Positions 1-51,603 of a stretch of 64,000 nucleotides of DNA are shown here, piece after piece. Both the position numbers and the translations under genes were made by a program. Source of the DNA: Candidatus Micrarchaeota archaeon (GTDB lineage: Archaea > Micrarchaeota > Micrarchaeia > Anstonellales > JAHKLY01); assembly GCA_020854825.1 (NCBI GenBank), contig JAHKLY010000001.1, positions 32,001 to 96,000 of the forward strand, in the 5' to 3' direction. The notes beneath the pieces are model-generated. The model saw nothing but the letters and a program-made list of their open reading frames with translations, had not been told where the DNA came from and did no database searches. The first letter of the stretch is position 1, and every line of letters starts with the position of its first letter.

Positions 1-1553
1 ATTTTACTCTTAGTTTCTGAAAAAGATATATTCAATAAATCAAATTCAGTATCAAAAATATCTAAAGACTTCCTTGTATTTATTAAATCTCCTACTTCAA
101 CATAAGAAATTGCAACTTCTAATTTCTGATCTAATGAATTAAAATTTATAGTTTGTTTATATTTTTCAGCTTGAAATTTTAATAAATCTAACTCTTCTTT
201 TGAATTATTTAATCGTTCTTCAATAAATTCATCAGTTTCTAATAAAACTTCGTTTGGATTTTTAAAATTTTCTAAAGATAAATGTATACTATATAAGTAC
301 TCTAAAGATTCAATATATTCATCATTAAAAAAAGAGTATTCAAATCTAATAAACAACTCTTGCTCCGGCGATAAATTATATAAATTTGAATAATATAAAA
401 GATAAGATTCAATATCTTTTGAAACTTCTTGTAATTCTGCCTCTAAAATTTCGTTTATTTCTTTAATTGCTTCGTCATATTTTTTATCAAATTCTTCAAT
501 TTTTTCTTGAGATAATTGATAGTTTGATTCTAAATAATAATACTCTGCACTTTTATAATACTCACTTATATCTATGCTACTATTTATCCCCAATTTATTT
601 GTTTTTTCTAATGTTAATTGTAAACTCTCTAATTTTTCTTCTGCTATATTCAATTTTTCTAAAGTAGTATCCATTAAAAGTTCAAATTCAAAATCATAAA
701 TTTCTACTCTTGAATTCCCCGTATCTGCAACATATACTTTACCATCAAAATAAAAAACGTCTTCTGGGTTATAAAACTCATACTTTTCATCTCCTTCTGT
801 CCCAAGTGTTTCTAATAAATTACCTAATAAATCAAAAACCACTATCCTATTATTACCTGTATCTGCTACAAACACAAACTTATCATTTACAAAAACTCCT
901 CTAGGATCTTTTAAAAAAATATCATCCCTACCTTTTCCTATATTTCTTATAAAATTAAAATCTTGGTCTACAACTTGAATTCTATTATTACCAGAATCTG
1001 CAATATATAAATAATTATTTGGGCCAACAAAAATATCTGATGGACCATCAAATTGACTATTAAACCTTCCTTTATTTATATACGTTTGATTGTATGATTC
1101 ATCACTATTATGTATATATACTCTACTACTAGATTTATCCAATATATAAAAATATCTGTCTACAAATGCAATCGCATAAGGATCTGAATAAAAATGGATA
1201 TTTTTAGAAAATACATCTAAACTAGGTCTTTTTTTATAAATCTTAATCTCTTTGTCATCACATATATATATTTCTTCATTAAATAAAAATATCCCTTTTG
1301 GTTCGTCTAATTCATTGATACTTGATCTTGAATATCCTATTTTTTTCTGCACTTCTCCATTGTATTCTAACATATATACAATTTGCATGCTGGTGTCTGA
1401 AACATAAATATAATTTTCATCCACCCATAAACTAATTGGATTATTAAATAATTCATCTCCTTTTGTTCCATTTAATGTTTTATCATAGATAAATTCTGCA
1501 TTTATTATAGAAAAACTTAACAATATGATGAATACAATACATAATTTCTTCAT
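1..1553 (-). CDS. Secreted NHL-repeat beta-propeller protein with C-terminal helical/coiled-coil region (3' end beyond window start)
   Basis: Not in ORF track because it runs off the edge. Manual translation from ATG 1553: signal peptide MKKLCIVFIILLSFSIINA, then repeated NHL blades (PSDIFVGPNNYLYIADSGNNRIQV, PRGVFVNDKFVFVADTGNNRIVVF, PEDVFYFDGKVYVADTGNSRVEIY). Confidence 0.85.
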   Translation of the reverse strand, partial: MKKLCIVFIILLSFSIINAEFIYDKTLNGTKGDELFNNPISLWVDENYIYVSDTSMQIVYMLEYNGEVQKKIGYSRSSINELDEPKGIFLFNEEIYICDDKEIKIYKKRPSLDVFSKNIHFYSDPYAIAFVDRYFYILDKSSSRVYIHNSDESYNQTYINKGRFNSQFDGPSDIFVGPNNYLYIADSGNNRIQVVDQDFNFIRNIGKGRDDIFLKDPRGVFVNDKFVFVADTGNNRIVVFDLLGNLLETLGTEGDEKYEFYNPEDVFYFDGKVYVADTGNSRVEIYDFEFELLMDTTLEKLNIAEEKLESLQLTLEKTNKLGINSSIDISEYYKSAEYYYLESNYQLSQEKIEEFDKKYDEAIKEINEILEAELQEVSKDIESYLLYYSNLYNLSPEQELFIRFEYSFFNDEYIESLEYLYSIHLSLENFKNPNEVLLETDEFIEERLNNSKEELDLLKFQAEKYKQTINFNSLDQKLEVAISYVEVGDLINTRKSLDIFDTEFDLLNISFSETKSK

Positions 1554-1558
1554 ACCCT

Positions 1559-1741
1559 TCACCTTACCCCAGTTGCGTAATAATTTTTAATATCTACTAT
1601 TTTTATTTTTAATTCTTCTCCTTTTTTAGCATTTTTAATATATATGGGAAAATTTTCTATTTTAGCAATTCCTTCATGATTAGCTGTTTCTGATATTATG
1701 TTAACTAAATATTTTTTCCCTTTTTCAATAGGAACTATCAT
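1559..1741 (-). CDS. Single TRAM-domain RNA-binding protein
   Basis: 60 aa, P.EKGK.Y.V.I......EGIAKIENF.IYI..AKKGE...IKI..IK..YA matches archaeal stand-alone TRAM proteins. Confidence 0.85.
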   Translation of the reverse strand: MIVPIEKGKKYLVNIISETANHEGIAKIENFPIYIKNAKKGEELKIKIVDIKNYYATGVR

Positions 1742-1794
1742 ATATAAATTTTAATCCAAAAGTATTTATAAATACGTCTATTATAAAGTAATAC

Positions 1795-2400
1795 ATGGTT
1801 TCCGAATTACAAGCAGACTATTTAATAAAATTAGCTAGAAATGCAGTAGAACAATACATTGAAACTAATAAAAAAATAACTCCTACTTTAAAAGACCAAG
1901 AATTAAATGAAGAAGCAGGTGTTTATGTTACTCTTAAATCTTTCCCTGAAGAAGAATTAAGAGGAGAAATTGGATATCCATATCCTATGGGAGAAATAAG
2001 TAGTAATATTATAGATAACGCCATAAGTGCAGCATTACATGACCCTAGATTTCCTTCTATTAAAAAGGATGAATTAAATACAATAATATTTGAGATCAGT
2101 ATACTATCAAGACCAAAAATATTGACTGTTTCTTCCCCTGAAGATTATATATCGAAAATAAAAATAGGAAAAAATGGATTGATTATAAAATATGGTGGGG
2201 CAACAGGGGTGTTATTGCCTCAAATCCCCATAGAATATAATTGGGGAGCCAAAGAATTCCTATGTCAAACATGTCAAAAAGCAGGATTACCCAAAGAGAT
2301 GTGGAAACGGCCCACTGTTGAAATATATACATTTGAAGCAGAAATAATAAAAGAAGAAAAACCACTAGGAAAAGTAATTAAAAAACGTTTATTTAGGTGA
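1795..2400 (+). CDS. AMMECR1-domain protein (TIGR00296 family)
   Basis: GVYVTL, LRGEIG (LRGCIG variant), AALHDPRF, GVLLPQ, FLCQTCQKAGL. Confidence 0.92.
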   Translation: MVSELQADYLIKLARNAVEQYIETNKKITPTLKDQELNEEAGVYVTLKSFPEEELRGEIGYPYPMGEISSNIIDNAISAALHDPRFPSIKKDELNTIIFEISILSRPKILTVSSPEDYISKIKIGKNGLIIKYGGATGVLLPQIPIEYNWGAKEFLCQTCQKAGLPKEMWKRPTVEIYTFEAEIIKEEKPLGKVIKKRLFR

Positions 2401-3098
2401 TTAAAATATCTGTTGTAAAAGTGAATAATAAATATTTCATTGAAATATCAGAAGAAATTGCAAAGTACTTAGGACAAAATATAAACATAACAAAAACAAA
2501 TGATGGAATATTAATAAAAAAAGATAAAAATGTTATAACCAAAGAAGAATTTTCAGTTTTAAAAAAATTAAATTCTTTTAAATTTGAAAAAAGAATCCCT
2601 TCTGAAGTTAATAAAATACTTACAAAATATGAAAAAGATGCATTAGATTCATTAATTTCTAAAAAAACAGTTTCTATATATAAAGAAGGAAAATATAAAA
2701 AAACAGGAGTATATAGTATATCCCAATCTATATACCCTAGATTATTGAATAAAAACAAAGAAGTAGAAAAAAAAGGTGTTTTTGGTAATGATAATTACCT
2801 AATAATAACTGATGAAAATGAAGCAAAAAGAATAAGCAATCAACTAAAAGAAGAAATAAAAAATAGAGATATAAGAGGAACACGTGGTTTTGATGGGAAA
2901 TTTTATATTGCAACTAAAGAGTTTTATGAAAAATATAAACTACCTATTTTAAAAATACTTGAAGGTAAAAATTTAAAATTGAGTGAAATAAGCAGCAATA
3001 TAAAAATACCTGAAACTGCTTGTTTAGTAGCATTAAGACTTTTAGACGAAGATGGAGAAATATTAGAAAAGAAAAAAAATGTTTTTTGTTTAATTTAA
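2397..3098 (+). CDS. Hypothetical protein, possible C-terminal winged helix
   Basis: 233-aa ORF overlapping the upstream stop (GTGA); C-terminal LKLSEISSNIKIPETACLVALRLLDEDGEILEKK is wHTH-like. Confidence 0.6.
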   Translation: MIKISVVKVNNKYFIEISEEIAKYLGQNINITKTNDGILIKKDKNVITKEEFSVLKKLNSFKFEKRIPSEVNKILTKYEKDALDSLISKKTVSIYKEGKYKKTGVYSISQSIYPRLLNKNKEVEKKGVFGNDNYLIITDENEAKRISNQLKEEIKNRDIRGTRGFDGKFYIATKEFYEKYKLPILKILEGKNLKLSEISSNIKIPETACLVALRLLDEDGEILEKKKNVFCLI

Positions 3099-21685: not shown

Positions 21686-21713
21686 AACTTAACAATACAA
21701 ACATTAATAAATA

Positions 21714-33938: not shown

Positions 33939-36311
33939 TTGATGAAAATATCTGGCTTTTTACTAAACATAGACTATAGTTCAGAAGATATAACTCTTTG
34001 GATTAAAACAAAAACTGGAACTGTAAGGATTACAGATACATATGATCCCTATTTTTACTTAGACGCACCACAAAATGTTATCAAAGATATTGAACTATTT
34101 AAAATTCTTTACAATGGAGAACCTATACAAATTAAGAATTATGAAAAAATAAGATACTGGGTAAAAGGAAAAGAAAAAGAATTATTTAAAATATACTGTT
34201 ATTCTCCTTCTCATATCCCATTAATTAAAAAAGCACTAGAAGATTTTCAATGTTATGAATATAAAATTAGATTTATACAAAGATACTTAATTGATAAACA
34301 ATTATGGCCACTTAAATCATATGAATTTATATATTCTAATAAAATAGATAAAATAGTTCCAATAGACGAAGAAGAAAATTTTAATATATTAGCATTTGAT
34401 ATTGAAACATATAATCCTTCGGGTATTCCAAATGAAAAAAAAGATCCTATAATCATGATAAGTTACGCAGATCAGAAAGAAGCAAAGGTTTTAACATTTA
34501 AAAAGATAAATAGAGAATTTGTAATAACATACACTAATGAAGAAAAAATGCTCGAAAGTTTTTGTAACATTTTAGAAGAAAAAGATATTGATTTAATTTT
34601 AGGTTATAATATAAATCAATTTGATCTTCCATATTTAAGAAAAAGAGCAAGAGTTTTAGGATTGGATTTAACTTTAGGAAAAGAAAATCTTGAGATTTTA
34701 GTTAAAAAAAATGGATCAAATACAAAAATAGAAATACCTGGGAGGATTCCTGTTGATTTATATCCAGTAGCTAGATTTTTGAGCAATATTGGGGCAGTTA
34801 GAATTACAAGATTCACTTTAAAACGGGTTTATCATGAACTTATTGGTGAAAAAAGTGAAACAAAGGAACTTGTAAAAAAAGAAGATATTTGGAAAATGTG
34901 GAATAATGAAAGAGAAAGAGACATACTTGCAGATTATTCATTAGGAGATTCAAAAGCAGTAATAGAAATATCCAAACATTTATTACCTGTTGAAATAGAA
35001 CTAGCCAAAGTATGTGGTTTAACTTTGGAAGAAACTGCTTCTTCAGCAACAGGCAGACTTGTTGAAAGTTTATTAATGCGTAAAGCACATGAACGAAATG
35101 AAATAATTCCAGAAATACCAAGACACCATGAAGTATTAGAAAGACAAAGAAATCCTATAAAGGCTGCATACGTTAAAATTCCAGAACCTGGAATTTATAT
35201 TAATATTGCAGTTTTTGATTTTAGAAGTTTGTATCCTTCTATTATTATTTCACATAATATAGATCCATTTACTTTGAATTGTGATTGTTGTGAAAATACA
35301 CATGTTTCTCCATTAGGGCATAAATTTTGTAAAAAAAGAAAAGGGATAATCCCTGAAACTCTAGAAGAATTAATAACTAAAAGAATTAAATTAAAAAAAG
35401 AAATGAAAAAATTAACAAAAGATTCAGAAGAATACAATAAAATATTTGCTAGACAATGGGCATTAAAGATTCTTGCAAATAGTTTTTACGGTCAGACAGT
35501 ATATCCAAGAGCAAGATGGTATTCAAGAGAATGTGGCTCTAGTATCACTTCATGGGGGCGACATTATATTTTATCAACAATTGAAAAAGCAGAAAAACTA
35601 GGATTTGACGTTTTATATTCAGATACAGATTCAATACTTCTAATCCTTAAAAATAAAACAAAAAAAGAGGCACTAGAATTTATGGAATCAATAAACAAAG
35701 AACTACCTGGAAATATGGAATTAGAATTAGAAGACTTTTATCCGAGAGGAGTATTTGTAAGTAAAAGAACTTCAGCAACAGGTGCAAAAAAGAAATATGC
35801 ATTGATAGATGAAAAAGGGATGATAAAAATAAGAGGTTTTGAATTAGTAAGAAGAGACTGGTCCAAAATAGCAAAAAAAACCCAAATGGATATATTAAAA
35901 GCAATATTACAAGATGGAGATAAAGAAAAAGCAGTCAAAATTGTTAAACAAACTATTCAAGAATTAAAAGAGGGTAAAATACCTTTAGAAGATTTAGTTA
36001 TTTACACCCAATTACAAAAAAATATTCATTCTTATGCGATTAAATCACCAGAAGTAAGCGCTGCTAAAAAAGCAATAAAAAGAGGTAAAAAAATAGAAAG
36101 TGGTGCATTAGTTGGGTATATAATAACAAAAAACGGCAGTTCAATATCAGATAAAGCTGAATTATTAGAATTTGCTGAAGATTATGATCCTGAGTATTAT
36201 ATTAATAAACAAATTATGCCTGCTGTTTTAAAGATATTAAAAGAATTGGGATACGAAGAAGACGAATTAAAAGCTAAAGGCAAACAAATAGGGTTAGATA
36301 GTTTTTTTTAA
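33939..36311 (+). CDS. polB: Family B DNA polymerase
   Basis: Exo I FDIET, Exo II GYN..FDLPYL, DFRSLYPSIII, KILANSFYG, YSDTDS, KKKYA, RRDWS, C-terminal PIP box QIGLDSFF; no intein. Confidence 0.97.
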   Translation: MMKISGFLLNIDYSSEDITLWIKTKTGTVRITDTYDPYFYLDAPQNVIKDIELFKILYNGEPIQIKNYEKIRYWVKGKEKELFKIYCYSPSHIPLIKKALEDFQCYEYKIRFIQRYLIDKQLWPLKSYEFIYSNKIDKIVPIDEEENFNILAFDIETYNPSGIPNEKKDPIIMISYADQKEAKVLTFKKINREFVITYTNEEKMLESFCNILEEKDIDLILGYNINQFDLPYLRKRARVLGLDLTLGKENLEILVKKNGSNTKIEIPGRIPVDLYPVARFLSNIGAVRITRFTLKRVYHELIGEKSETKELVKKEDIWKMWNNERERDILADYSLGDSKAVIEISKHLLPVEIELAKVCGLTLEETASSATGRLVESLLMRKAHERNEIIPEIPRHHEVLERQRNPIKAAYVKIPEPGIYINIAVFDFRSLYPSIIISHNIDPFTLNCDCCENTHVSPLGHKFCKKRKGIIPETLEELITKRIKLKKEMKKLTKDSEEYNKIFARQWALKILANSFYGQTVYPRARWYSRECGSSITSWGRHYILSTIEKAEKLGFDVLYSDTDSILLILKNKTKKEALEFMESINKELPGNMELELEDFYPRGVFVSKRTSATGAKKKYALIDEKGMIKIRGFELVRRDWSKIAKKTQMDILKAILQDGDKEKAVKIVKQTIQELKEGKIPLEDLVIYTQLQKNIHSYAIKSPEVSAAKKAIKRGKKIESGALVGYIITKNGSSISDKAELLEFAEDYDPEYYINKQIMPAVLKILKELGYEEDELKAKGKQIGLDSFF

Positions 36312-36327
36312 ATGTTATTAAATATTA

Positions 36328-37637
36328 TTAACTCTTTTTTTCTCTTTCTTGTTTTTTAGCTTGTGCTATTTGCATATCTATAAGATATGAAAACGTATAT
36401 TGTGCATCTTGTTCATTTAAATAAAGCGACTTTTGAGCATATTGATCATCTCCTGAATAAATAAAAACTGCTGTTCCCCCTCGTATTTTATCAATAATAT
36501 ATTTAGATTCTCTATCATCAATTGAAGGACAGCCATGACTACAGCCTAACCTATACTTCCCGTCTGAATAATTCATTGGTTCTCTAGAATATTTTGCTCC
36601 ATGCATTACTATTCCGCGCCTTTGCATATTATTATTAACTTCTTCTAATCCAATCAAAATTAATGAATATCCATTTTTTTCACTATTATATGTCCAACCA
36701 GAGTTACTGCAAGTCCCATACTGGACTTATTATCATTAGGTATGTTTGAGAACTCTGCCATTTCTGATTTTTCAGTCTTTTTTGCCCCATGTGAAACATA
36801 TAATACATTCTCTATCTTCTTATTCTCCATATTTAAAACAAATAATCTTTTTTCATAAGAAGGCAAAGAATAATCAATTATAGTTAAAAAATCTGATCTT
36901 GTTATCTCTCCTAGTTTTAATCCATTTAAATATGCAACAATTGCTTGTTCAAAACATTCAAAACTTAATCCTTGTTCCTGTGCATTGAACTTCTCATACT
37001 CTTGTCTTATCCAATAAGTAACTGACTTCTTTCCTTTTTCTAAAAAATCTTCTATTGTATCTACATCCACAATGTGCGCTGCACTTTCTAAAGTATCTGT
37101 AGATACAAAAGTCCTATCTGTATCTGTAACAGAGGGTTGGAATATTTCTGTTTCAATTTGTGACGAGATATCAAAATTCTCTTTTGGCAAGTATCCTTCT
37201 AAAAACTTTGGGACCAATTTTATCCTCTGTTCAGTCAATTGAGTATATCTATTTTCATTATCTTTTAACATCTTCTCAATTTTTTCTTTTGCCCAAACAG
37301 TACTTATACTAGAAATAAGAACTTCAATTGTTTCTTCTTGTTTAAAAGATTCTATCGCAGTATTAACAATGTTTTTTCCGTTTGCATATCCTTCTAAATA
37401 CCAAACATATGCAATTACTTCTAATAATTGAGTTCTTTTTGGTTCTCCCATATTTTCTAAATCGAGATTTGATTTTATAATGCTATCTTTAGCTCTCCAA
37501 AATGCCTCATGTAATAAATCTCTTTTTCCAATAGGTATATTCAAATACTTTCCAAAATTATTCATCAATTCTAATTCGTGTTTAGTTAAAGTGGCTGTTA
37601 CTTTACTTTCCCAATAAGTTTGTTTAATATGCCCCAT
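36328..37637 (-). pseudogene. Frameshifted fusion of an orphan N-terminal domain and a YkuD_2-type murein L,D-transpeptidase domain (ORFs 36660-37637 and 36328-36657)
   Basis: IIDYSLPSYEKRLFV..VSHG..FSN.P...KSSMG continues in another frame as GWTYNSEKNGYSLILIGLE..NNN...RGIVMHGA..RLGCSHGCPSI. Removing 2 nt at ~36700-36703 restores one ORF. Confidence 0.85.
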
Positions 37638-37689
37638 ACAATTAATGTATTAGTTTCTATTTATAAATATTTCAGATTAAAAAATAGGT

Positions 37690-38586
37690 ATGGAAAAAGA
37701 AGAAGATATTAAAAATTACATAAAAGCAGGACAAATAGCAAACAAAATTTTAAATAACAGTAAAAAAATGATTATCCCAGGAGAATCTTATTTAGATATA
37801 GCTGAAACTATTGAAAAAATGATAATTGATGAAGGAGGCAAACCTGCTTTTCCTACAAATATTAGTATTAATGAAAATGCAGCTCATTACACACCAAAAA
37901 TTAATGATAATAAAATTTTAGAGGATAATGATTTAGTTAAAATAGATTTTGGGATACATATAGGAGGTTGTATTTCAGATAATGCGTATACTATTGATTT
38001 AAGTGGCGAACATGCAAAATTAGTTGAAGCATCAAAAAATGCATTAGATGCAGCAACATCATATATGAAAGCTGGAAGAAAGGTTGGAGATATCGGAGAA
38101 ATAATAGAAAACGAAATTAAAAAAATGGGTTTTAAACCAATTGAAAATTTAACCGGACATATGCTTAAACCATATTTATTACATGCAGGTGAAATAATTC
38201 CAAATATTAAAACAGACGATGATTATATTTTAAAAGAGGGAGATATTTTTGCAGTTGAACCTTTTGCAACAAATGGTTACGGAGCAGTAAAAGAAGGTTT
38301 AGATTTGGAAATATATTCTTTAGCTGAAATGAAAAATGTTAGAATGAGACAATCAAGACAAGTTTTAGCGCACATAATCCAAAATTATTTTGCTTTACCA
38401 TTTGCAAGGAGATGGTTATCTCCTGTAATAAATTCACAAATAGCATTAAGCGCAGCATTAAGAGAATTAACAAGAAGTGGGATATTAACTACTTACCCAG
38501 TTCTTAAAGAAGTTGATAATGGATTAGTATCACAAGCAGAACATACTGTTATTATTGAAAAAGATTCTGTAAAGATTTTATTGTGA
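37690..38586 (+). CDS. map: Methionine aminopeptidase type II
   Basis: AFPTNISINENAAHYTP, KIDFG.H, D.AYT, NLTGH, AVEPFAT, SQAEHT. Confidence 0.96.
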   Translation: MEKEEDIKNYIKAGQIANKILNNSKKMIIPGESYLDIAETIEKMIIDEGGKPAFPTNISINENAAHYTPKINDNKILEDNDLVKIDFGIHIGGCISDNAYTIDLSGEHAKLVEASKNALDAATSYMKAGRKVGDIGEIIENEIKKMGFKPIENLTGHMLKPYLLHAGEIIPNIKTDDDYILKEGDIFAVEPFATNGYGAVKEGLDLEIYSLAEMKNVRMRQSRQVLAHIIQNYFALPFARRWLSPVINSQIALSAALRELTRSGILTTYPVLKEVDNGLVSQAEHTVIIEKDSVKILL

Positions 38587-38627: not shown

Positions 38628-39518
38628 TCATTTTACGTACTCTTTATACTGTATACCAAATAACTCATAGATATATTTTACAAAGTCTTTTTCTTTATTA
38701 TCAGAGTCATATTTTTGTAAAACTAAATAATAATACATTTTTTCATCATTAAATATATTTATCAAAGGATATTCTGCGTTTAACATAATAAAATTCATTA
38801 AAAGTCTTGCTACTCTTCCATTTCCATCTCCAAAAGGATGAATTTTCACAAATTTTAGGTGCATTAGAGAAGCTAATTCAATTATATGAAGTTTATTTTT
38901 GTTTATATTATACCACCCTATTAATTCGAACATGAGTTTTGGTAATTCTTGATACTTAGGACAAAAATAATTACCTACTTTCACATCATAAATTCTAAAT
39001 TTTCCAGCATCCTGCATAAGCCCATTCATTTCTATTTTATGGAGCTTTAGTATAAACTCTATACTTATATCCTCTTTATACATAAATAAATAATCAATAC
39101 ACTGTTTCATATTTTTTATTTCTTTTACATCTCTTTTCTTTGTTTCTAATCCTTTAATTTTTTTACCTTTTAATACTTCTTCAGTATCTTTAAGAGATAA
39201 TGTATTCCCTTCTATTGCATTTGTGTTATAAATAAAACTTATTAATTTCTGTTTCTCAGTTTTCCATAACGTTTTATCAATTTTATATTTTTTAGAATAT
39301 TCTTTTTTTATTTTATCAACAATTTTCAATTGTCGTTTAGTCAGATAATGCTTTATTTTAATTTTCGTTTTCTTCTTTTTCAAATATTTCTCTATATCTT
39401 TTGGGATTTTTGTCCCAAGATATTTTCTCTTTTTCTTAAACTTCCCATTAACTCTTTTTGTTTTAGTAAGATAGTAATAAATGTTACCGTTTATTTTTTT
39501 CTTTTCAATATATGCCAT
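38628..39518 (-). CDS. Fic-family protein with N-terminal beta-sheet DNA-binding-like domain
   Basis: HPFGDGNGRVAR Fic motif; inhibitory helix TNAIEGN; N-terminal YIEKKKINGNIYYYL....NGK.....YLG. Confidence 0.93.
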   Translation of the reverse strand: MAYIEKKKINGNIYYYLTKTKRVNGKFKKKRKYLGTKIPKDIEKYLKKKKTKIKIKHYLTKRQLKIVDKIKKEYSKKYKIDKTLWKTEKQKLISFIYNTNAIEGNTLSLKDTEEVLKGKKIKGLETKKRDVKEIKNMKQCIDYLFMYKEDISIEFILKLHKIEMNGLMQDAGKFRIYDVKVGNYFCPKYQELPKLMFELIGWYNINKNKLHIIELASLMHLKFVKIHPFGDGNGRVARLLMNFIMLNAEYPLINIFNDEKMYYYLVLQKYDSDNKEKDFVKYIYELFGIQYKEYVK

Positions 39519-40540: not shown

Positions 40541-41458
40541 ATGGTATATTTAAAGAAACGAACAGTTAAGGGAATAGACTACTATTATGCAGTAGAAAAC
40601 AAAAAGCTTAATGGAAAAATTGTACAAAAAAATGCATATTATTTTGGAAATAAAAAACCAAATAAATATGAATGGCAAGCTGTTGTTTATGCTCTTAAAA
40701 ATAAAGATGTTTTTAATCCAAAAAAACATGAGATAACTAAAGATCAGATCAAAAGAATAATAGAAATAAACAAAAGAATGCAAAAAGATTTTAAAGAAAT
40801 GTCAAGGAGTGAAAAAGACAATTTTAATGAAAAATTTTATAATGAATATATTTACAATACAAATTCTATCGAAGGTTCAACTTTAACTAAAAAAGAAACT
40901 TATTTTGTCACACATGATAATAAAGGAATTGAAGGAAAAGATTTGAAAGAAATATATATGGCTAGAAACTTAAATTATGCAATAAAATTTATAAAGGATT
41001 ACAAGGGAGATTTAACTCTAAGATTTATTAAGAAATTACATAGTATAATACAAGAAAATATTCAACCAAAAGAAGAATTAGGAAAATATAAAAAAAGACA
41101 AAATTACATTATTGGAAATGATTTTATACCTACTCCTCCCGCATTAGTTAAAAAAAGAATGATGAGTTTAATAGGATGGTACGGGCATAACAAAAAGAAA
41201 TATTCTCCTTTTGAATTAGCATGTATATTCCATATAAAATTCGTAAGCATCCATCCATTTATAGATGGAAATGGAAGAACAGCAAGATTAATACATAATT
41301 TCATTTTAGAAAAAAATGATATTATACCCATTATTTATAGAACAAAAACAAAACAAAAATATTATTCAGCTTTAAAAAATGCACAAATGCACGGATTGCA
41401 TAAACCATTTATAGATTACTCGTTTGAAGAATTCATAAATACTTACGAGGGATATTAA
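40541..41458 (+). CDS. Fic-family protein with N-terminal beta-sheet DNA-binding-like domain
   Basis: HPFIDGNGRTAR; TNSIEGS; N-terminal YLKKRTVKGIDYYY......NGK......YFG. Confidence 0.93.
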   Translation: MVYLKKRTVKGIDYYYAVENKKLNGKIVQKNAYYFGNKKPNKYEWQAVVYALKNKDVFNPKKHEITKDQIKRIIEINKRMQKDFKEMSRSEKDNFNEKFYNEYIYNTNSIEGSTLTKKETYFVTHDNKGIEGKDLKEIYMARNLNYAIKFIKDYKGDLTLRFIKKLHSIIQENIQPKEELGKYKKRQNYIIGNDFIPTPPALVKKRMMSLIGWYGHNKKKYSPFELACIFHIKFVSIHPFIDGNGRTARLIHNFILEKNDIIPIIYRTKTKQKYYSALKNAQMHGLHKPFIDYSFEEFINTYEGY

Positions 41459-45388: not shown

Positions 45389-46618
45389 ATGAAAGAAAAA
45401 TTACTTATATTAATATTATTCTTACTATTAGGAGGAGTATTTGCAGAATCTCCTGACTCTCTTTCTTTTAATCTTTTTCCTATGGCACTTGCAGTTTTAA
45501 TATCTTTATCATTCGCGGTTATTGTATTTTTAATATCCCAACTCGCCCAATCCCCTCAATTAGATGCATGGGCAAAAACAGAAATGACTGAAATATTTAC
45601 TACAGTATTAATTGCCGTAATACTTGTTGGTTTAATTGTTTCTGCAAATATATTGCCTACTTTAACAGGTTTGGGTGAAAATTATGAGGATTTAATTTTG
45701 AATAATATAATAAAACAAAGAACTAATACCATACGGACATTTGACCATTTAAGTCATACAAACTTTATATTAACACGATACAGTTCTTTTTCATATTCAA
45801 AAACATCTTCTATTCCCGTAGTAGATTGGTTATATACTCAATTTGAATCAAGATCACAAAACTTTGGATTGGGTCCGCTTGTATCAAAATTTAATAGAAG
45901 TTTTGATTCTTTAGGACAAGCAATATTTATTTTAACTGCAGAAAAAATAATACTTCAATATTTATTATATGCTATCCCTCTATTCTTTTTTCCTTTAGCA
46001 ATTGTGTTGAGGGCATTAACATTCACAAAAAAGTTTGGTAATATATTACTTGCATTCTGCATTGCAGGTTACTTCATATTCCCTTTGTCTGTTGTGTTTG
46101 CTGGTGAAATATACAATACACTATTACCTAATGAAGTTTTAAACTCGCAATTAAGTACTATCTTTGATACAACAAAAAGAATAGACCCTGGAAACATACC
46201 TGCACAAGGAATAATATGCAGTACAATTCCTGCAAGCATTGCTCAACTAGGACAATTTGGATTTATTGTGTCTGTGTGTGCAACCCTATGTGCAATTATC
46301 GGTTGGTTCACAGGTGGATTTTATACATGTTATGTCGCATGTAAACCAATAGCTGAAATTATTTATTATTTTGCAGTTCCCATGTTTCAATATACATATG
46401 GTGCTGCACTTTCTGGTTTTGCAGTTATGGAAGGTGCAACTTTTGATCAAACATATGATTTAATAATCAAAACAATTCTCCCATTAGTTACTCTTCAATG
46501 GTTATTAGCAATAGTTCTCCCTTTAATTTCAATAATTTTAACTATTGTGTCTGTAAAAAGTATATCCTCTGCATTAGGCGCAGATATCCATATTTATGGA
46601 TTAAGTAGGTTGATTTAA
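45389..46618 (+). CDS. Polytopic membrane protein, CedA/VirB6-like paralog 1
   Basis: Signal peptide; LDAWAKTE; FPLAIVLRALTFTKKFGNILLA; C-terminal SSALGADIHIYGLSRLI. Confidence 0.7.
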   Translation: MKEKLLILILFLLLGGVFAESPDSLSFNLFPMALAVLISLSFAVIVFLISQLAQSPQLDAWAKTEMTEIFTTVLIAVILVGLIVSANILPTLTGLGENYEDLILNNIIKQRTNTIRTFDHLSHTNFILTRYSSFSYSKTSSIPVVDWLYTQFESRSQNFGLGPLVSKFNRSFDSLGQAIFILTAEKIILQYLLYAIPLFFFPLAIVLRALTFTKKFGNILLAFCIAGYFIFPLSVVFAGEIYNTLLPNEVLNSQLSTIFDTTKRIDPGNIPAQGIICSTIPASIAQLGQFGFIVSVCATLCAIIGWFTGGFYTCYVACKPIAEIIYYFAVPMFQYTYGAALSGFAVMEGATFDQTYDLIIKTILPLVTLQWLLAIVLPLISIILTIVSVKSISSALGADIHIYGLSRLI

Positions 46619-47463
46619 TGAAAAAAATATTATTTATACTTCTATTTACCATTTCCATTTGTTTTGCAGAATCAAGCATAATAACAGATTCATTAGTGTA
46701 TATATTATTAGGAGTTTTACTCTCCTTTGCAATAATTTCAATTTCATTCATGGTAGGAAAAATATTAAATCAAATTAAATTTATTCATTGGGCAAAAACA
46801 GAAATAACCAATACTATAATCTCCATCTTCCTAATATTTATAATTTTAGGAAGTATGTTTGCTTTTCTAGAATTAAGTGACAATATATTTGAAAAAGCAT
46901 ATATATACCTTGATAGTCAAACTTCAAAAGGAATTTCATATATATCTGAATTAACACGAAGCAGTTTAAATGACCAATTTGAAAGTACTTATTATGCTTT
47001 CATTGGCACCCCATTCACATCTAGTGGAGGAGCAGGTAAATCATATAGAGCATATTATTTATCATACAGCACTCAAAAGGATATTGTAGTAAATATCATT
47101 TTTGCAACAATAGTAAGTTTAGAAGTTCAAAAAATAATTTTACAACTAATAGAAAATTTATCTTTTTCATTATTCCTGCCCATAGGAATTGTATTACGGG
47201 TTTTCCCAGCAACAAGAGATATTGGTAATTTCATATTTGCTTTTGTAATTGGTGCAGCTTTTATTTTACCTATGACTTATTTACTTTATTCTAGTGCCTC
47301 AAATACCTTGCCTATTTCTGCACCTATTGATTTTGCAATGGGAGACATAACCCCAATTGCGATATTACTTCCGCAAGCAATATTTTTTCCTAATTTAAGT
47401 TTAGTTATTTTAATTACTTCAGTAATGGCAATATATAAAGGTTTCAAACAAATATTGGTGTAA
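46618..47463 (+). CDS. Polytopic membrane protein, CedA/VirB6-like paralog 2
   Basis: IHWAKTE; LPIGIVLRVFPATRDIGNFIFA; TAATG translational coupling. Confidence 0.7.
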   Translation: MKKILFILLFTISICFAESSIITDSLVYILLGVLLSFAIISISFMVGKILNQIKFIHWAKTEITNTIISIFLIFIILGSMFAFLELSDNIFEKAYIYLDSQTSKGISYISELTRSSLNDQFESTYYAFIGTPFTSSGGAGKSYRAYYLSYSTQKDIVVNIIFATIVSLEVQKIILQLIENLSFSLFLPIGIVLRVFPATRDIGNFIFAFVIGAAFILPMTYLLYSSASNTLPISAPIDFAMGDITPIAILLPQAIFFPNLSLVILITSVMAIYKGFKQILV

Positions 47464-49457
47464 TGATGAACAAAAAAGTATTAATCCTATTGATTTTTTG
47501 CGTTGTTCTTATTAGTGGAAATTGGATTGACAATGAATATGCAATAGATCACTTCTCAAATACTACTTCTGAAGGATTATTTATTGATGCAACACAAGGG
47601 GGAATTTTGGAACCTGGATCTGTTATCTCAAACACTTGGTTAAAAAATTGGGTATTAATGGCCATAATTGTAATACTAATATCCTTTGCTTTTGTTGCTT
47701 TGGCTTATATTATATCAAAAACATTTAATATAACTATCTTAAAAGCATGGGCAGATGTTGAACTATCTCAAATTATAGTTTCTGGAATTATGCTGGCTTT
47801 AATAATTGTGGGATTAGGTGTTTTAGATTCTATATCTGAATTATTGATTATAGATATTTTTGAAAATTTAGGAATTGAATGTGTAGAAGGCCAACAAAAA
47901 GCAATTTGTATAGCAAATTTATATTTAGATGATACATTTGATACTACAAATAAAGCTGCAAAAAATTTAATGTCTGAAACTTTAACAATAGGTAGAAGAG
48001 CTGCTTTAAAAGAAGGATGGGCACTTCAAACTTTACCTTACATGTCTTTTTCAGAATCACCAGATGCAAATTTAAGATTAATTGTAGAAAGAAATTCAAT
48101 CCTGATAGACTACTATGGAAATATATTAGCATCATTAAAAGCACAAAAATATTTTTTGAATGCAATAGGTTTTTCGATTGGCCCAATATTTATTGTGCTT
48201 GGATTAATATTTAGGTCCTTCTTTTTAACAAGAAAAATGGGCGGATTATTAATGGCAATAGGAATAGGAGTTATTGTTGTTTTACCATTAACCTATGTTT
48301 TTGCTATGTTTACTCTATCTATTCAAATATATGGTGATGAAATGCTCTCTCCATTAAATGATAATTGTCCTGCTGAATGTCTACAACAATATCCTTTAGG
48401 ATTTAATTCTAGTGATGGCTCATTAATATATTCTCCAAGTATTTTTTCTCCCTATTTACCTACAGGTAGTTCATTTTATGATTTTGAACCCTCAGAAGAA
48501 ATATGGGAAGATATATCATTAAATCATGATATTGTGCTTTGTGATTCTGTTTGTAATGGATGCCCAATAGGATGTAGAGAACTACCTTTAACCGCATCAT
48601 TATGTTTTTGTGATGAAGAAGCATGCAATGATTGTCCAAAAGAATGTAAAGTAATAAGAGAAAGAACAGATTGTTCTGAATCTGATTCAACTTATTATTG
48701 TCCAACAACTTTATGTCCAAATGAATGTAAAATGAATTTGACTCCTACATTAAATAATTGTTGGTCTTCTTCATGTGGTGATTGTCCTGCCGATTGTAGA
48801 TTTGATTATGCTGATGGAACAGATAGAACTACAACTCATCCTCATTGTCCTTCTGAATGTGATAGTTGTATGTGTAATGTAATTATCCCCTCACCATATC
48901 AAATTGATTGTAATTTAGCATGTGGAGATATATATTGGGAAAGGACAACAGAAGGATTACTATCTGACCCTTCAAGTGGATGTCCTGAAGGATGTTTAGG
49001 ATATTTACCAGAAACAACAGATGGAAATGGATGTGAAAGTTGCGCAGATTGTGATGCAGGGTGCAGATTTATTGATTCAGAATTAAGAGATCCAGATTGT
49101 GATTTTTCATGTTGTTACGATTGCCCTACTGAATGTATGATTGATACATTACCTTTGAGCCCATGTCAAGGTTGTTGGGAATGCAGTCCAGATTGTACAA
49201 CATTACCTCAAATAAGAACCGACTGTGCTTCTGTGTGTGGAGAGATTAAAGGTTTTTATGATGTAAGACCTAAAGAATTAATAAATAAAATAGAGGGTGC
49301 AGAAGGAGAAACAAATGCAAAGGCATTAGGTATTTTATTATTCCCTGCATATATTTTACCTTTATTAAGTATAATCTTAACAATTGCATTTATTAGAGGA
49401 TTTTCACAATTCCTTGGTGGTGATTATGAAATACCTGGATTGGCAAAACTTATCTAA
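47463..49457 (+). CDS. Polytopic membrane protein, paralog 3, with large Cys-rich (CPxxC repeat) insert
   Basis: LKAWADVE; LGLIFRSFFLTRKMGGLLMA; about ten CPxxC-type motifs; C-terminal SQFLGGDYEIPGLAKLI. Confidence 0.72.
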   Translation: MMNKKVLILLIFCVVLISGNWIDNEYAIDHFSNTTSEGLFIDATQGGILEPGSVISNTWLKNWVLMAIIVILISFAFVALAYIISKTFNITILKAWADVELSQIIVSGIMLALIIVGLGVLDSISELLIIDIFENLGIECVEGQQKAICIANLYLDDTFDTTNKAAKNLMSETLTIGRRAALKEGWALQTLPYMSFSESPDANLRLIVERNSILIDYYGNILASLKAQKYFLNAIGFSIGPIFIVLGLIFRSFFLTRKMGGLLMAIGIGVIVVLPLTYVFAMFTLSIQIYGDEMLSPLNDNCPAECLQQYPLGFNSSDGSLIYSPSIFSPYLPTGSSFYDFEPSEEIWEDISLNHDIVLCDSVCNGCPIGCRELPLTASLCFCDEEACNDCPKECKVIRERTDCSESDSTYYCPTTLCPNECKMNLTPTLNNCWSSSCGDCPADCRFDYADGTDRTTTHPHCPSECDSCMCNVIIPSPYQIDCNLACGDIYWERTTEGLLSDPSSGCPEGCLGYLPETTDGNGCESCADCDAGCRFIDSELRDPDCDFSCCYDCPTECMIDTLPLSPCQGCWECSPDCTTLPQIRTDCASVCGEIKGFYDVRPKELINKIEGAEGETNAKALGILLFPAYILPLLSIILTIAFIRGFSQFLGGDYEIPGLAKLI

Positions 49458-50511
49458 ATTAAGTGTATTTACACTTTTACTATGCTTTTCTTTAGCACAT
49501 GCAGAATTTTTAGATACTCCTTCTGCAGAATTAGCATCTTGGCAAACTATGGTTTTTATTGCTGTGAGTGTCTCATTTTCAATTGTTATATTTGGTTATA
49601 TTATTGCATCTATTTTACAAAATCAACATTACACTTCTGTATTCAAAGATGAATTAATACAAGTAATATTTACTGGAATAGGCATAGCTGTTTTATTATT
49701 TATTATTGGAGTTTTTGAAATAAGTTTAATGCCGATACTAAACGAAAAACTTGGAGGAGAAGAATTAACTTTACATGCATCAGCACAGACTGCATTAGAT
49801 AAAAAACTAAACAGAGCAGAAGAAAGGTTTGAAGGAATAATTTTATATACAAATAAACTTGCAGAACAAGGTTCAAAATATGCATCATGTAGTTTCTGGA
49901 GTGTTGGATTTTATATTGGAGGATGTTCTGGCTTAAATGTTGCATTGGGTCCAATAACTACTGGTTTATCTACACTTGCAATTGGAATAACTGATTTATA
50001 TTCTTTGAATTTATTGAATCAAATTGGAATAATATTATACACTTTTCTTTTACCTCTTGGAATATTTTTTAGGACCTTCCATTTAACAAGGCAGTTTGGC
50101 GGATTTTTAATTGCTGTTGCATTAGCATTTGGAATTGTTTTCCCAGTATCAGTATTATTTTTAGAAACAATATCTCAAGATTTCCATAATAATGTTTTAG
50201 GGATAACAAGAGATCCAGAACATATTACCTATATAATAGATGACAGTGATGTTGAAAGATGCAATGAATTTAATCCTAGTTTTTCAGAACATATCAGACC
50301 TAATTTGGGATTAGGGGATGGAACTACACACGGAACAAGAAAAGGGATTCTAAATGAAACAACTTTAGATATATTAGCAGCAGAAATAATTGTTGATATA
50401 ATTTTATTTACCTTAATACTAATTATAATGCTCCTTACCTTTATAACAGCAACTGTTTCATTCTTTGGTGGAACTGTTGATTTAATGTATTTAACAAGAT
50501 TGTCGGTGTAA
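49426..50511 (+). CDS. Polytopic membrane protein, paralog 4
   Basis: ATG 49426 after GGTGGTGA; SVFKDELIQ; LPLGIFFRTFHLTRQFGGFLIA; C-terminal FFGGTVDLMYLTRL. Confidence 0.7.
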   Translation: MKYLDWQNLSKLSVFTLLLCFSLAHAEFLDTPSAELASWQTMVFIAVSVSFSIVIFGYIIASILQNQHYTSVFKDELIQVIFTGIGIAVLLFIIGVFEISLMPILNEKLGGEELTLHASAQTALDKKLNRAEERFEGIILYTNKLAEQGSKYASCSFWSVGFYIGGCSGLNVALGPITTGLSTLAIGITDLYSLNLLNQIGIILYTFLLPLGIFFRTFHLTRQFGGFLIAVALAFGIVFPVSVLFLETISQDFHNNVLGITRDPEHITYIIDDSDVERCNEFNPSFSEHIRPNLGLGDGTTHGTRKGILNETTLDILAAEIIVDIILFTLILIIMLLTFITATVSFFGGTVDLMYLTRLSV

Positions 50512-50514
50512 TGA

Positions 50515-51603
50515 ATGAATCATAAAATATTTTTTACATTGTTTGTTTTGCTTTTTTCTAACTTAAGTGCGAGCTGTGGATTTGTTTGCGACATAGTAGT
50601 AGATGAATTTCTACTGCCTACTTTTGTTGCTGTGTTTTTAACATTAGGATTTATTTCAATAATTTATATGATAGGTAAAATCACTGAAAATCCTAGATTA
50701 AATGTTTGGGCACAGGCAGAATTAGGACAAGCAATATTAACCGTAATAATAGCAGTATTTATATTAGGAGGGATTACCTGGTTTTGCACAGAAGGTTCTG
50801 GTGTTGCTATATCTGCAGGAATGTATTCTGGAGGAAGTCCATATTCTGGGAATATGTATGATATTTCTTGCAGTTATTTATCAAATATAGCAGAATACTC
50901 TAATGATGTAATGTCACTAATAAGATATAATATAGCAGTAGGAAATATTAGGGCTTCATTAAATGAATTTGGTTGTAAAGGGGATGAATTGCATGTAAAC
51001 CCATATGGGTGTGCAATGGCATTTTTAGGAGGTCCTGCTACAAGTTGGAACGCGCATGCAAGTAATTATAATTATGTTTCTTTATTTAACACTTCATTAA
51101 ACATTGCAACAATCTGTTTTTTCAATTCATTATTCCTATTATATTTATTACAATATATTAGTTCTGGATTTTTATATATTCTTTTACCTGCAGGCATAAT
51201 AATTAGAGCAATTCCTTTCTTAAGAGGCTTAGGTGGTGCTTTAATTGCAATTATTGTGGGTTTATTTTTATTTTTACCTTTTATGCTTACAATAGAAGCT
51301 ATGATTTGGGGACCAATTATGCAAAATTGGCATAGTAGTATGATCTTTCCAGATGAAAGAGATATTCAAAATGACATTTGGCCTGTTTCATTAGAAGGAA
51401 TCGTAGATATTATGGATTGGAATACAGTTGATGATTTTTCACATAATAATTTAATAGATATTTTTAAATCTACAACCCATATATTTTTAGCAGGGGTATT
51501 TTTACCATACCTTGGATTTATAGGAGTAGTTTTAGTAACGAAAGATTTTTCAAAATTACTCGGAGAAGAAGTTGATATCTCAAAATTAACGCAGTTGATA
51601 TAA
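50515..51603 (+). CDS. Polytopic membrane protein, paralog 5
   Basis: LNVWAQAELGQ; LPAGIIIRAIPFLRGLGGALIA; C-terminal SKLLGEEVDISKLTQLI. Confidence 0.7.
   Translation: MNHKIFFTLFVLLFSNLSASCGFVCDIVVDEFLLPTFVAVFLTLGFISIIYMIGKITENPRLNVWAQAELGQAILTVIIAVFILGGITWFCTEGSGVAISAGMYSGGSPYSGNMYDISCSYLSNIAEYSNDVMSLIRYNIAVGNIRASLNEFGCKGDELHVNPYGCAMAFLGGPATSWNAHASNYNYVSLFNTSLNIATICFFNSLFLLYLLQYISSGFLYILLPAGIIIRAIPFLRGLGGALIAIIVGLFLFLPFMLTIEAMIWGPIMQNWHSSMIFPDERDIQNDIWPVSLEGIVDIMDWNTVDDFSHNNLIDIFKSTTHIFLAGVFLPYLGFIGVVLVTKDFSKLLGEEVDISKLTQLI

What the first reader, a model, noticed from the sequence alone, without database searches (positions are those of the whole stretch)
36328..37637. Bacterial-type peptidoglycan L,D-transpeptidase domain in an archaeon, split by a 2-nt frameshift
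Seen: YkuD_2-family motifs (IDYSLPS..KRLFV, VSHG, FSN.P....SSMG, G.SL.L.GLE..N.N...R.IVMHGA, RLG.SHGCP with catalytic His and Cys intact) split over two ORFs. GTA ACT CT GGT TGG contains a CT duplication, and removing it gives V-T-G-W-T-Y in frame. Knowledge: these enzymes act on bacterial peptidoglycan stems, which archaea of this type lack. Inference: an acquired enzyme aimed at bacterial cell walls, suggesting a bacterial host or prey, or antagonism. The frameshift may be recent inactivation, a phase-variable switch or an assembly error.
Basis: partly seen in the sequence, partly recalled or inferred. Interest (0 to 1): 0.8.

Follow-up and report, generated by a model that had tools for sequence, protein, structure and literature searches.

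The report
Broken archaeal L,D-transpeptidase-like gene
A tiny symbiont-type archaeon that makes no bacterial cell wall carries a recently broken copy of a rare, fast-evolving gene whose product resembles the enzymes bacteria use to cut and re-join cell-wall peptides.

Summary
On the minus strand, 36702-37637 and 36331-36699 together encode one Pfam YkuD_2 (PF13645) domain. It is split between profile positions 90 and 94 by a frame change at 36700-36701.

The break is probably not an assembler's error. Contigs of three sequencing runs carry it unchanged, and the truncated 325-aa product is on record from 5 contigs. No intact allele was found.

The host is an archaeon with an 828-kb genome, probably Micrarchaeota, order Anstonellales. 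No Mur ligase was found in it. The gene lies between PolB and methionine aminopeptidase, as in a same-genus genome where it is intact.

The full-length form is a leaderless helical N-domain plus YkuD_2. It occurs in only 6 clusters among 1.84 billion representatives. It evolves much faster than its neighbours.

Best reading: a recent pseudogene of an old, order-restricted acquisition, not a switch. Action on bacterial peptidoglycan is inferred, not shown. The same genome keeps an intact classical YkuD gene with a signal-like N-terminus and a PG_binding_1 protein.

Weak structural matches suggest the N-domain may be lysozyme-like.

The parts
36660..37637 (-). ORF-A, 325 aa. It holds the N-terminal helical domain, a linker, the first half of the YkuD_2 domain and a 13-codon out-of-frame tail that ends at TAA 36660-36662.
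   Evidence: The exact 325-aa product is on record from 5 contigs.
37221..37637 (-). N-terminal all-helical domain (residues about 1-139). It is specific to this small archaeal family and may have a lysozyme-like fold.
36978..37220 (-). Low-confidence linker followed by short helices that lead into the catalytic domain (residues about 140-220).
   Evidence: pLDDT is below 50 for residues 153-187. The region varies in length among relatives.
36702..36977 (-). First half of the YkuD_2 domain (residues 221-312; profile positions 2-90).
   Evidence: 62.6 bits, E 3.9e-17.
36700..36701 (-). The break. An extra CT follows the Thr312 codon ACT (ACT CT GGT), giving a net +2 frame change. The alternative reading is the remnant of a Leu codon that lost one base.
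   Evidence: P0011 is contiguous across the break, and the consensus spacing is T-x-x-T-Y. G001 has TTA at this place. Contigs of runs X1, X5 and X6 cover it with 0 differences.
36331..36699 (-). Second half of the YkuD_2 domain in the other frame (123 codons, no stop). It carries the His of IVMHGA (36601-36603), the Cys of SHGC (36529-36531) and a C-terminal helix. The stop is at 36328-36330.
   Evidence: 66.4 bits, profile 94-169; conserved residues kept.
36655..36657 (-). TTG, two bases after ORF-A's stop codon, which opens the mechanical 109-aa ORF (36328..36657). A product started here would lack the 15 residues GWTYNSEKNGYSLIL of the core hairpin.
   Evidence: The strand positions come from the model of P0011. 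That it serves as a start is not shown.
37661..37670 (.). TTTATAAATA in the 52-base spacer shared with the divergent methionine aminopeptidase gene. It is a possible archaeal TATA box about 24 bases upstream of ORF-A's ATG.
   Evidence: Seen by eye. Not tested.

Best explanation
This locus is a recently inactivated copy (a pseudogene) of a lineage-specific archaeal gene.

The intact gene is seen in relatives. It encodes a protein of about 430-485 aa with no signal peptide. It has an all-helical N-terminal domain found only in this small group, a disordered linker, and a C-terminal YkuD_2 domain with the L,D-transpeptidase fold and its His and Cys.

In this genome two extra bases (CT after the Thr312 codon) shift the frame inside a core beta-hairpin. 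ORF-A therefore ends 13 codons later, and the catalytic half is left untranslated in another frame.

Shown:
- the split domain;
- the reality of the break in several assemblies;
- conserved synteny within the genus;
- the restricted distribution of the long form;
- fast divergence relative to the neighbouring genes;
- the fold, tested on the closest intact relative;
- no Mur ligase match in this genome.

Inferred:
- The family acts on D-amino-acid-containing stem peptides of bacterial peptidoglycan. The active-site Cys would attack the peptide to form an acyl-enzyme. Water would then resolve it (carboxypeptidase or endopeptidase outcome) or an amine would (exchange or cross-link).
- The family serves contact with, or feeding on, neighbouring bacteria.
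- This lineage has dispensed with it while keeping an intact classical YkuD gene with a signal-like N-terminus.
For: - **One domain in two frames.** Pfam YkuD_2 positions 2-90 and 94-169 fall in the two frames. It is the only such locus in the 828-kb genome.
- **The break is reproducible.** A contig of run X1 (possibly the source of this DNA) covers 35800-38200 with 0 differences. Contig 6 of X5 (35926-36740) and contig 11 of X6 (36567-36717) span the break with 0 differences and 0 gaps. The truncated 325-aa product is on 5 contigs from NCBI, JGI, Logan and ENA.
- **No intact allele found.** Among 16 hits at E<=1e-5, the nearest protein other than the truncated form itself is P0011 at 54% identity.
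- **Intact relatives exist.** They are G001 (471 aa, between PolB and MetAP as here), G005, G007 and G021 and P0011 (433 aa).
- **Recent lesion.** There is no other stop in the 123 downstream codons. The window keeps the family residue at 40 of 45 conserved columns, including the His and the Cys.
- **Rarity of the long form.** Of 4486 hits at E<=1e-3 among 1.84 billion representatives, 6 of the best 150 listed cover the N-domain as well.
- **Distribution.** 8 of 401 sampled genomes of the phylum have PF13645, all in the window's order.
- **Fast divergence.** Against G001 the gene is 27-47% identical, while PolB is 80% and MetAP 83.5%.
- **No own murein.** No Mur_ligase_M match was found in the 97.6%-complete genome.
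- **Other peptidoglycan-related genes in the same genome.** There is an intact 296-aa YkuD (PF03734) protein with a hydrophobic N-terminus, and a 178-aa PG_binding_1 protein.
Against: - Only assembled contigs, not raw reads, could be laid. A minority intact allele cannot be excluded, and the runs may belong to one sampling campaign.
- No RNA data were examined.
- The two halves show no further decay. That fits a very recent lesion but also fits a gene still in use.
- No member of the family has a signal peptide or membrane segment, so access to a bacterial wall is unexplained.
- Some intact relatives have lost residues that are invariant in the other family members. G001 and P0001 have Tyr for the His at P0011 position 289, and P0008 lacks the His at position 351. 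The family's chemistry may therefore not be uniform.
- No enzymatic data exist for any YkuD_2 member from archaea in the papers searched.
Confidence: 0.7

Rival explanations
1. The break is a sequencing or assembly artefact, and the gene is intact in the cells.
For: Single indels are a common error in metagenome-assembled genomes. All holders are sludge metagenomes of one year, and four of the six runs may be the source of this DNA. Only contigs could be examined.
Against: Separately assembled contigs of X1, X5 and X6 carry the same sequence across the break with 0 gaps. The truncated ORF is on record from 5 contigs in four sources. No intact allele appeared in the 5.8-billion-cluster search. 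The site is not a long homopolymer.
Confidence: 0.07
2. The gene is still expressed as a working enzyme. Possible routes are a -1 ribosomal frameshift, transcriptional slippage in the A7 run (GTG AAA AAA ATG, inside the 64-base overlap of the two frames), or two polypeptides that assemble.
For: Both halves are otherwise intact. An A7 run lies in the overlap of the frames. A TTG follows ORF-A's stop after two bases.
Against: There is no canonical X XXY YYZ heptamer in phase in the overlap (read). Slippage at A7 would replace GWTYNSEK with 9 unrelated residues and lose the Tyr conserved in 99% of the 68 other members. A two-piece product would lack 15 residues of a core hairpin. A7 is short for efficient slippage (general knowledge, recalled).
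Confidence: 0.06
3. On the function of the family: it is a cytoplasmic enzyme that trims imported peptidoglycan-derived peptides (L,D-carboxypeptidase-like) for nutrition. It is not a tool that acts on intact bacterial walls.
For: None of the 6 long forms has a signal peptide or membrane segment, whereas 119 of 144 other top hits have a hydrophobic N-terminus. The fold matches include the L,D-carboxypeptidases Csd6 and Pgp2. The genome is small and lacks Mur ligase. The PG_binding_1 protein of the same genome also has no signal sequence by eye.
Against: No muropeptide transporter was looked for or found. Divergence of 27-47% against 80-84% for the flanks is more typical of proteins in conflict with other organisms than of housekeeping salvage. 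The N-domain's weak lysozyme-like matches would be odd for a peptide-trimming enzyme.
Confidence: 0.2
4. On the function of the family: the substrate is not bacterial murein. It could be pseudomurein of a methanogen host, or an archaeal surface protein that is anchored or trimmed by the Cys enzyme.
For: Known hosts of cultivated Micrarchaeota are archaea (recalled, not checked here). The runs that hold this DNA are labelled sludge metagenomes. The family departs from the consensus at otherwise invariant residues.
Against: The same genome and its relatives carry PG_binding_1 domains, in G348 fused to YkuD_2 itself. All solved structural matches act on murein or on murein-bound lipoprotein. Nothing links the family to pseudomurein.
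Confidence: 0.08

Closest known systems
Bacterial YkuD_2 (PF13645) 'murein L,D-transpeptidase catalytic domain family' proteins, about 230-290 aa
   Same: The domain is the same by sequence (62.6 and 66.4 bits against a 27-bit cut-off). The window keeps 40 of 45 conserved residues, including the His in the HGA motif and the Cys in S-x-G-C.
   Different: 119 of 144 top bacterial-type hits start with a hydrophobic, signal-like segment. The archaeal long forms have none, and they carry an extra N-terminal region of about 220-280 residues. The copy here is frameshifted. No YkuD_2 member matched a solved structure by sequence (0 hits).
Classical L,D-transpeptidases and L,D-carboxypeptidases of the YkuD fold (LdtMt2, B. 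subtilis YkuD, Csd6, Pgp2, Bd1075, DpaA)
   Different: Sequence identity is only 11-19%. The organism shows no Mur ligase and so has no murein of its own to cross-link. There is no export signal.
Tlde1 type VI secretion effectors (L,D-transpeptidase-fold toxins)
   Different: No Phage_sheath_1 match was found in the genome. No candidate immunity partner is conserved beside it: the neighbours differ between G001, G005 and G007/G021. The Pfam score is below the cut-off.
Peptidoglycan-directed enzymes already reported in archaea
   Same: The general idea is in print: archaea without murein carry bacterial-type wall enzymes, read as signs of bacterial hosts or prey. Lytic transglycosylase proteins of Woesearchaeota and Pacearchaeota are described in PMC8204110 and PMC9723730 (passages read). 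Peptidoglycan hydrolases that kill bacteria are described in PMC12352652 (passages read).
   Different: Those enzymes are glycosidases, amidases or peptidases, often with signal peptides. YkuD, YkuD_2 and transpeptidase do not occur in the text of PMC12352652 or in its 7 held supplements. This family belongs to Micrarchaeota, is leaderless and has a different catalytic domain.
Modular phage endolysins (glycosidase module plus peptidase module, no signal peptide)
   Same: Both are leaderless and have two modules. The N-domain's best, though weak, structural matches are lysozymes, endolysins and lytic transglycosylases. The top BFVD matches are large multi-domain phage proteins, and lysins appear further down the list.

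Membership tests
Pfam YkuD_2 (PF13645) | Match to the family profile above the gathering score | tested here: met
   62.6 bits (profile 2-90) and 66.4 bits (profile 94-169) against a cut-off of 27. The two matches lie in two different frames.
Pfam YkuD_2 (PF13645) | Conserved active-site residues: His in (I/V)xHGA and Cys in S-x-G-C | tested here: met
   IVMHGA and SHGC are present. The window keeps 40 of 45 columns conserved in at least 85% of the 68 other members.
Pfam YkuD_2 (PF13645) | One uninterrupted reading frame across the domain | tested here: not met
   There is a frame change at 36700-36701 and a premature TAA at 36660-36662. Contigs of 3 runs reproduce it.
L,D-transpeptidase (YkuD) fold enzymes | The beta-rich YkuD catalytic fold | tested here: met
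L,D-transpeptidase (YkuD) fold enzymes | Extracytoplasmic location (signal peptide, lipoprotein signal or membrane anchor), as for the bacterial enzymes | tested here: not met
   A crude hydropathy scan found no hydrophobic segment in the first 60 residues of any of the 6 long forms. 119 of 144 other hits have one. No dedicated signal-peptide predictor was available.
L,D-transpeptidase (YkuD) fold enzymes | Activity on peptidoglycan stem peptides; acylation by carbapenems | not testable with these tools
   This needs purified intact orthologues and sacculi or muropeptides.
L,D-transpeptidase (YkuD) fold enzymes | The producer's own murein as substrate | tested here: not met
   No Mur_ligase_M match in the 97.6%-complete genome, while the control search rang in 13 of 14 reference genomes.
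Lysozyme-like superfamily (T4 lysozyme, GH24, lytic transglycosylases, GH46), for the N-terminal domain | Shared fold with clear structural significance | tested here: inconclusive
Lysozyme-like superfamily, for the N-terminal domain | Sequence match to a family of the clan; catalytic Glu in place | tested here: inconclusive
   No Pfam hit even at E<=10 for the 7 members. An acidic residue (window E21) and N33 are conserved in all 7, but their place in the fold could not be checked because no coordinates were available.
Tlde1 type VI effectors | Pfam Tlde1_dom above cut-off, and a delivery system in the genome | tested here: not met
   16.4 bits against a cut-off of 30.1. No Phage_sheath_1 match in the genome.

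The most novel reading that the evidence does not exclude
The intact members of this family are an archaeal invention: a leaderless, endolysin-like enzyme with two modules. A lysozyme-like glycan-binding or glycan-cleaving N-domain is joined to a YkuD_2 stem-peptide module. Micrarchaeota of this order would deliver it at cell-cell contact to open or re-stitch the sacculus of a bacterial partner. Its very fast divergence would reflect an arms race with that partner. Its recent loss here, with an intact classical YkuD retained, would mark a change of partner or of strategy.
Probability: 0.15. Interest if true: 0.75.

Novelty: new variant of a known kind. Interest (0 to 1): 0.45.

Why it matters
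Hosts of most DPANN archaea are unknown. Enzymes aimed at bacterial walls are one of the few genomic hints that some of these archaea live on bacteria.

This locus adds a Micrarchaeota-specific family to that list. The family has an unusual architecture, no export signal and rapid evolution. The locus also shows that the family is dispensable in at least one lineage, which still keeps another L,D-transpeptidase-fold gene.

The intact relatives (P0011, and the G007 and G021 proteins) are concrete candidates for testing whether such archaea bind, cut or re-link peptidoglycan. The broken copy itself is of limited interest.

Tried and rejected
**Searches that found nothing**
- The metagenome-contig scan for DNA of P0011, meant to settle CT insertion against one-base loss, confirmed no locus.
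Organism names therefore come only from source labels of proteins.
- PDB sequence search with the family profile: 0 hits.
- NCBIfam: no family for either half.
- ESM Atlas for the N-domain: no usable hit.
- Foldseek against PDB for the N-domain: nothing at E<=0.001.
- Pfam at E<=10 on all 7 members: no lysozyme-like family.
- Earlier notes of this scan: none near this place and none by sequence.

**Own genome, no match**
- SLT, Phage_sheath_1 and Mur_ligase_M.

**Phylogeny**
- FastTree put all 11 sequences from archaeal genomes, plus 3 leaderless sequences of unknown origin, on one side of a branch with support 99, against 139 others. Three divergent rows are on long branches.
- An IQ-TREE quick run was made on 46 rows: 8 archaeal, the 3 unknown, and every fourth of the other hits. 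The three long-branch rows L007, L008 and L011 were left out. It recovered the group only with weak support (0-74). Only the clade of window, P0011, P0001 and G001 was strong (98).
- A single origin is therefore consistent with the data but not shown.

**Readings rejected**
- Phase variation: only two CT units.
- Chimeric contig: synteny with G001.

**Coverage gaps**
- Runs X3 and X6 have no contig over parts of the stretch. This is not evidence of anything.

**Supplements not seen**
- The supplementary tables of PMC8204110 and PMC9723730 were not opened.
- bioRxiv supplements are closed.
- Either set might list YkuD-type families in DPANN.

Full report
**What is in the sequence**

The feature lies on the minus strand. 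A second frame, open from 36726 down to the stop at 36328, carries the rest, including IVMHGA and SHGCP.

Pfam YkuD_2 (PF13645, gathering score 27) matches ORF-A residues 221-312 to profile positions 2-90 (62.6 bits). It matches the second frame to positions 94-169 (66.4 bits). One domain is therefore cut between positions 90 and 94.

The cut is at ACT|CT|GGT, with the CT at 36700-36701. ORF-A then reads 13 unrelated codons to TAA at 36660-36662. NCBIfam has no model for either half. This is the only YkuD_2 locus in the genome.

**Which lesion**

Two results support that.

- The closest intact relative, P0011 (433 aa), aligns to the window's first piece over its residues 1-318 and to the second piece over 319-433. 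Identity is 54% and 56%, and nothing lies between the two alignments.
- The consensus of 76 aligned family members has the spacing T-x-x-T-Y, which the CT-less reading restores exactly.

Against this, the same-genus orthologue G001 and P0001 have a Leu there (T-L-G/F-E-T). In the DNA alignment the window looks like ACT CT- GGT beside G001's ACT TTA GGA. Loss of one base from a Leu codon therefore remains possible. Both readings change the frame in the same way. I could not obtain P0011's DNA.

**Is the break real**

Six public runs hold the stretch, all labelled sludge metagenomes of one year. Four may be the source of this DNA. Only Logan contigs, not raw reads, were on hand.

- In X1 (a possible source) one contig covers 35800-38200 with 0 differences.
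- In X5 (not flagged as a source) contig 6 covers 35926-36740.
- In X6 contig 11 covers 36567-36717.
- The X5 and X6 contigs span the break with 0 differences and 0 gaps.

The exact truncated 325-aa product is on record from 5 contigs in NCBI, JGI, Logan and ENA. A search of 5.8 billion clusters with ORF-A gave 16 hits at E<=1e-5. Apart from the truncated form itself, the nearest was P0011 at 54%. No intact allele of this species' gene is in public data as far as that word-based search can see. An assembly error is therefore unlikely. Contigs drop rare variants, however, and the runs may be one campaign.

**The organism and the setting**

The window encodes TBP, ribosomal proteins L31e and S19e, eIF-6, prefoldin, PcrB, PTH2, Rad50, family-B DNA polymerase, type II methionine aminopeptidase, SRP54 and SepF. 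It is archaeal. The genome has 828,311 bases in 7 contigs and is 97.6% complete.

Source labels give hints to the taxon. Relatives P0002 and P0009 are labelled 'Candidatus Micrarchaeota archaeon'. Members of P0013's cluster are labelled Candidatus Anstonellales or Micrarchaeia. P0013 is nearly identical to the protein of G348, a genome of the window's order.

The gene is convergent with PolB and divergent from MetAP. The same order is found in the same-genus genome G001, where the gene is intact at 471 aa. The contig is therefore not chimeric here. GC is 30% in the gene and 28% in the window.

**The family**

PF13645 was found in 8 of 41 relatives and in 8 of 401 evenly drawn genomes of the phylum. 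All of them are in the window's order. These counts include the window's own genome.

A profile of the long forms was run over 1.84 billion representatives.

- 4486 proteins matched at E<=1e-3.
- Of the best 150 listed, only 6 cover the N-terminal region as well: P0001, P0002, P0008, P0009, P0010 (this ORF-A) and P0011.
- From rank 7 on, the matches cover the catalytic domain only.

None of the six has a hydrophobic segment in its first 60 residues. By contrast, 119 of 144 other top hits do, by a crude hydropathy test. ORF-A starts at the first start codon after an upstream stop, so no hidden leader exists.

Against G001 the gene is 27-47% identical, while PolB is 80% and MetAP 83.5%. It evolves far faster than its neighbours.

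Some intact relatives have lost residues that are invariant in the 68 other members. G001 and P0001 have Tyr for the His at P0011 position 289, and P0008 lacks the His at position 351. The Cys is kept in all.

In a FastTree tree, the 11 sequences from archaeal genomes plus 3 leaderless sequences of unknown origin stand on one side of a branch against 139 others, with support 99. An IQ-TREE quick run on 46 rows recovers the group with weak support. Only the clade of window, P0011, P0001 and G001 is strong, at 98. A single old acquisition in the order fits the data but is not proven.

**Structure**

The AF2 model of P0011 (mean pLDDT 85.4) shows these parts:

- a helical N-domain, residues 1-142;
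- a disordered stretch, 143-185;
- helices, 186-248;
- a beta-rich domain, 256-400;
- a C-terminal helix.

The break in the window falls in the hairpin formed by strands 314-324 and 328-335 of that model.

**The N-domain**

It has no Pfam match, no Atlas hit and no Foldseek match. VIA gives only middling scores, but they point one way.

**Other wall-related genes**

The same genome gave no Mur_ligase_M match, no SLT match and no Phage_sheath_1 match. It does encode two related proteins.

- An intact 296-aa protein with a hydrophobic N-terminus and a classical YkuD domain (PF03734, E 9.4e-13, HG...SHGC motif).
- A 178-aa protein with a PG_binding_1 domain (E 3.5e-12) and no leader by eye.

In G348, YkuD_2 follows a weak, sub-threshold PG_binding_1 match (19.5 bits against a cut-off of 23). 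It sits beside a 459-aa PG_binding_1 protein. These associations support peptidoglycan as the family's substrate. They do not prove it.

**Interpretation**

The most likely account (0.7) is a recent pseudogene. A two-base insertion disrupted a core hairpin of an otherwise well-kept gene. No other lesion has accumulated.

Rescue by recoding is unlikely.

- The overlap of the two frames has no canonical slippery heptamer in phase.
- Slippage in the A7 run would replace eight residues, including a Tyr conserved in 99% of the 68 other members.
- A two-piece product would lack 15 core residues.

Phase variation is unlikely with two CT units.

For the intact family I infer Cys-mediated attack on D-amino-acid-containing stem peptides of bacterial peptidoglycan. 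Whether this happens at contact with a bacterial partner or on imported fragments in the cytoplasm is open, because there is no export signal.

**What is known**

Wall-directed enzymes in archaea that lack murein are in print.

- Lytic transglycosylase proteins of Woesearchaeota and Pacearchaeota are read as hints of bacterial hosts or prey (PMC8204110 and PMC9723730, passages read).
- Archaeal peptidoglycan hydrolases kill bacteria, and 32% of them carry signal peptides (PMC12352652, passages read). That paper's text and its 7 held supplements do not contain YkuD, PF03734 or PF13645.
- A T6SS paper places YkuD_2 proteins in one clade with E. coli YcbB (10.1101/2020.02.18.954545, passages read).

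The full-text searches were:

- D-transpeptidase + DPANN: 2 papers;
- YkuD + archaea: 22 papers;
- DPANN + peptidoglycan + bacterial host: 36 papers;
- PF13645: 4 papers;
- Micrarchaeota + peptidoglycan: 29 papers.

Judged from the listed titles and abstract starts, and from passages of five of these papers, none describes this family. The supplementary tables of PMC8204110 and PMC9723730 were not opened.

Earlier AI notes of this scan describe exported YkuD (PF03734) enzymes in other DPANN archaea. The intact YkuD with a signal-like N-terminus in this genome is of that kind.

**Verdict**

The gene here is most likely dead. The family behind it is a rare, leaderless, fast-evolving archaeal variant of a known bacterial enzyme type.

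Noticed in passing
G000 contig C2, about 21290-22180 (+); L013 1345..2235: An intact 296-aa protein with a hydrophobic, signal-like N-terminus and a classical YkuD domain (PF03734, E 9.4e-13, HG...SHGC motif). This is a second, apparently exported L,D-transpeptidase-fold enzyme in the same murein-less genome.
   Followed up: partly
G000 contig C3, about 244505-245040 (+); L012 1246..1782: A 178-aa protein with a PG_binding_1 domain (E 3.5e-12) and no signal sequence by eye.
   Followed up: partly
window 45389-61769 (+): Eight consecutive same-strand ORFs with no Pfam match at E<=1e-5, ending in proteins of 1640 and 1396 aa. They may be a surface or cell-contact apparatus.
   Followed up: no
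window 38628-39518 (-) and 40541-41458 (+): Two Fic-domain genes within 3 kb of each other, just beyond the methionine aminopeptidase gene.
   Followed up: no
L008 2441..3385 (-) with 1297..2523 (-); L011 2..952 (+) with 961..2043 (+): In two genomes of a sister family (G034, G244), a divergent YkuD_2-like gene lies directly downstream, on the same strand, of a Cys-rich ORF of about 315 aa with a GLMQCI motif and no Pfam match. Pfam matches only profile positions 5-125 of the YkuD_2-like gene, though a G-C motif is present. The pair may be conserved.
   Followed up: partly
L010 1444..2481 (-) and 1..1377 (-): In G348 a 345-aa protein has a weak, sub-threshold PG_binding_1 match (19.5 bits against a cut-off of 23) ahead of a high-scoring YkuD_2 domain (197.9 bits). 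It sits next to a 459-aa PG_binding_1 protein. Neither has an obvious leader.
   Followed up: partly
L006 1414..2829 (-) and P0001; P0008: Intact relatives have replaced residues that are invariant in the 68 other family members. G001 and P0001 have Tyr for the His at P0011 position 289, and P0008 lacks the His at position 351. This hints at relaxed or altered function across the family.
   Followed up: partly
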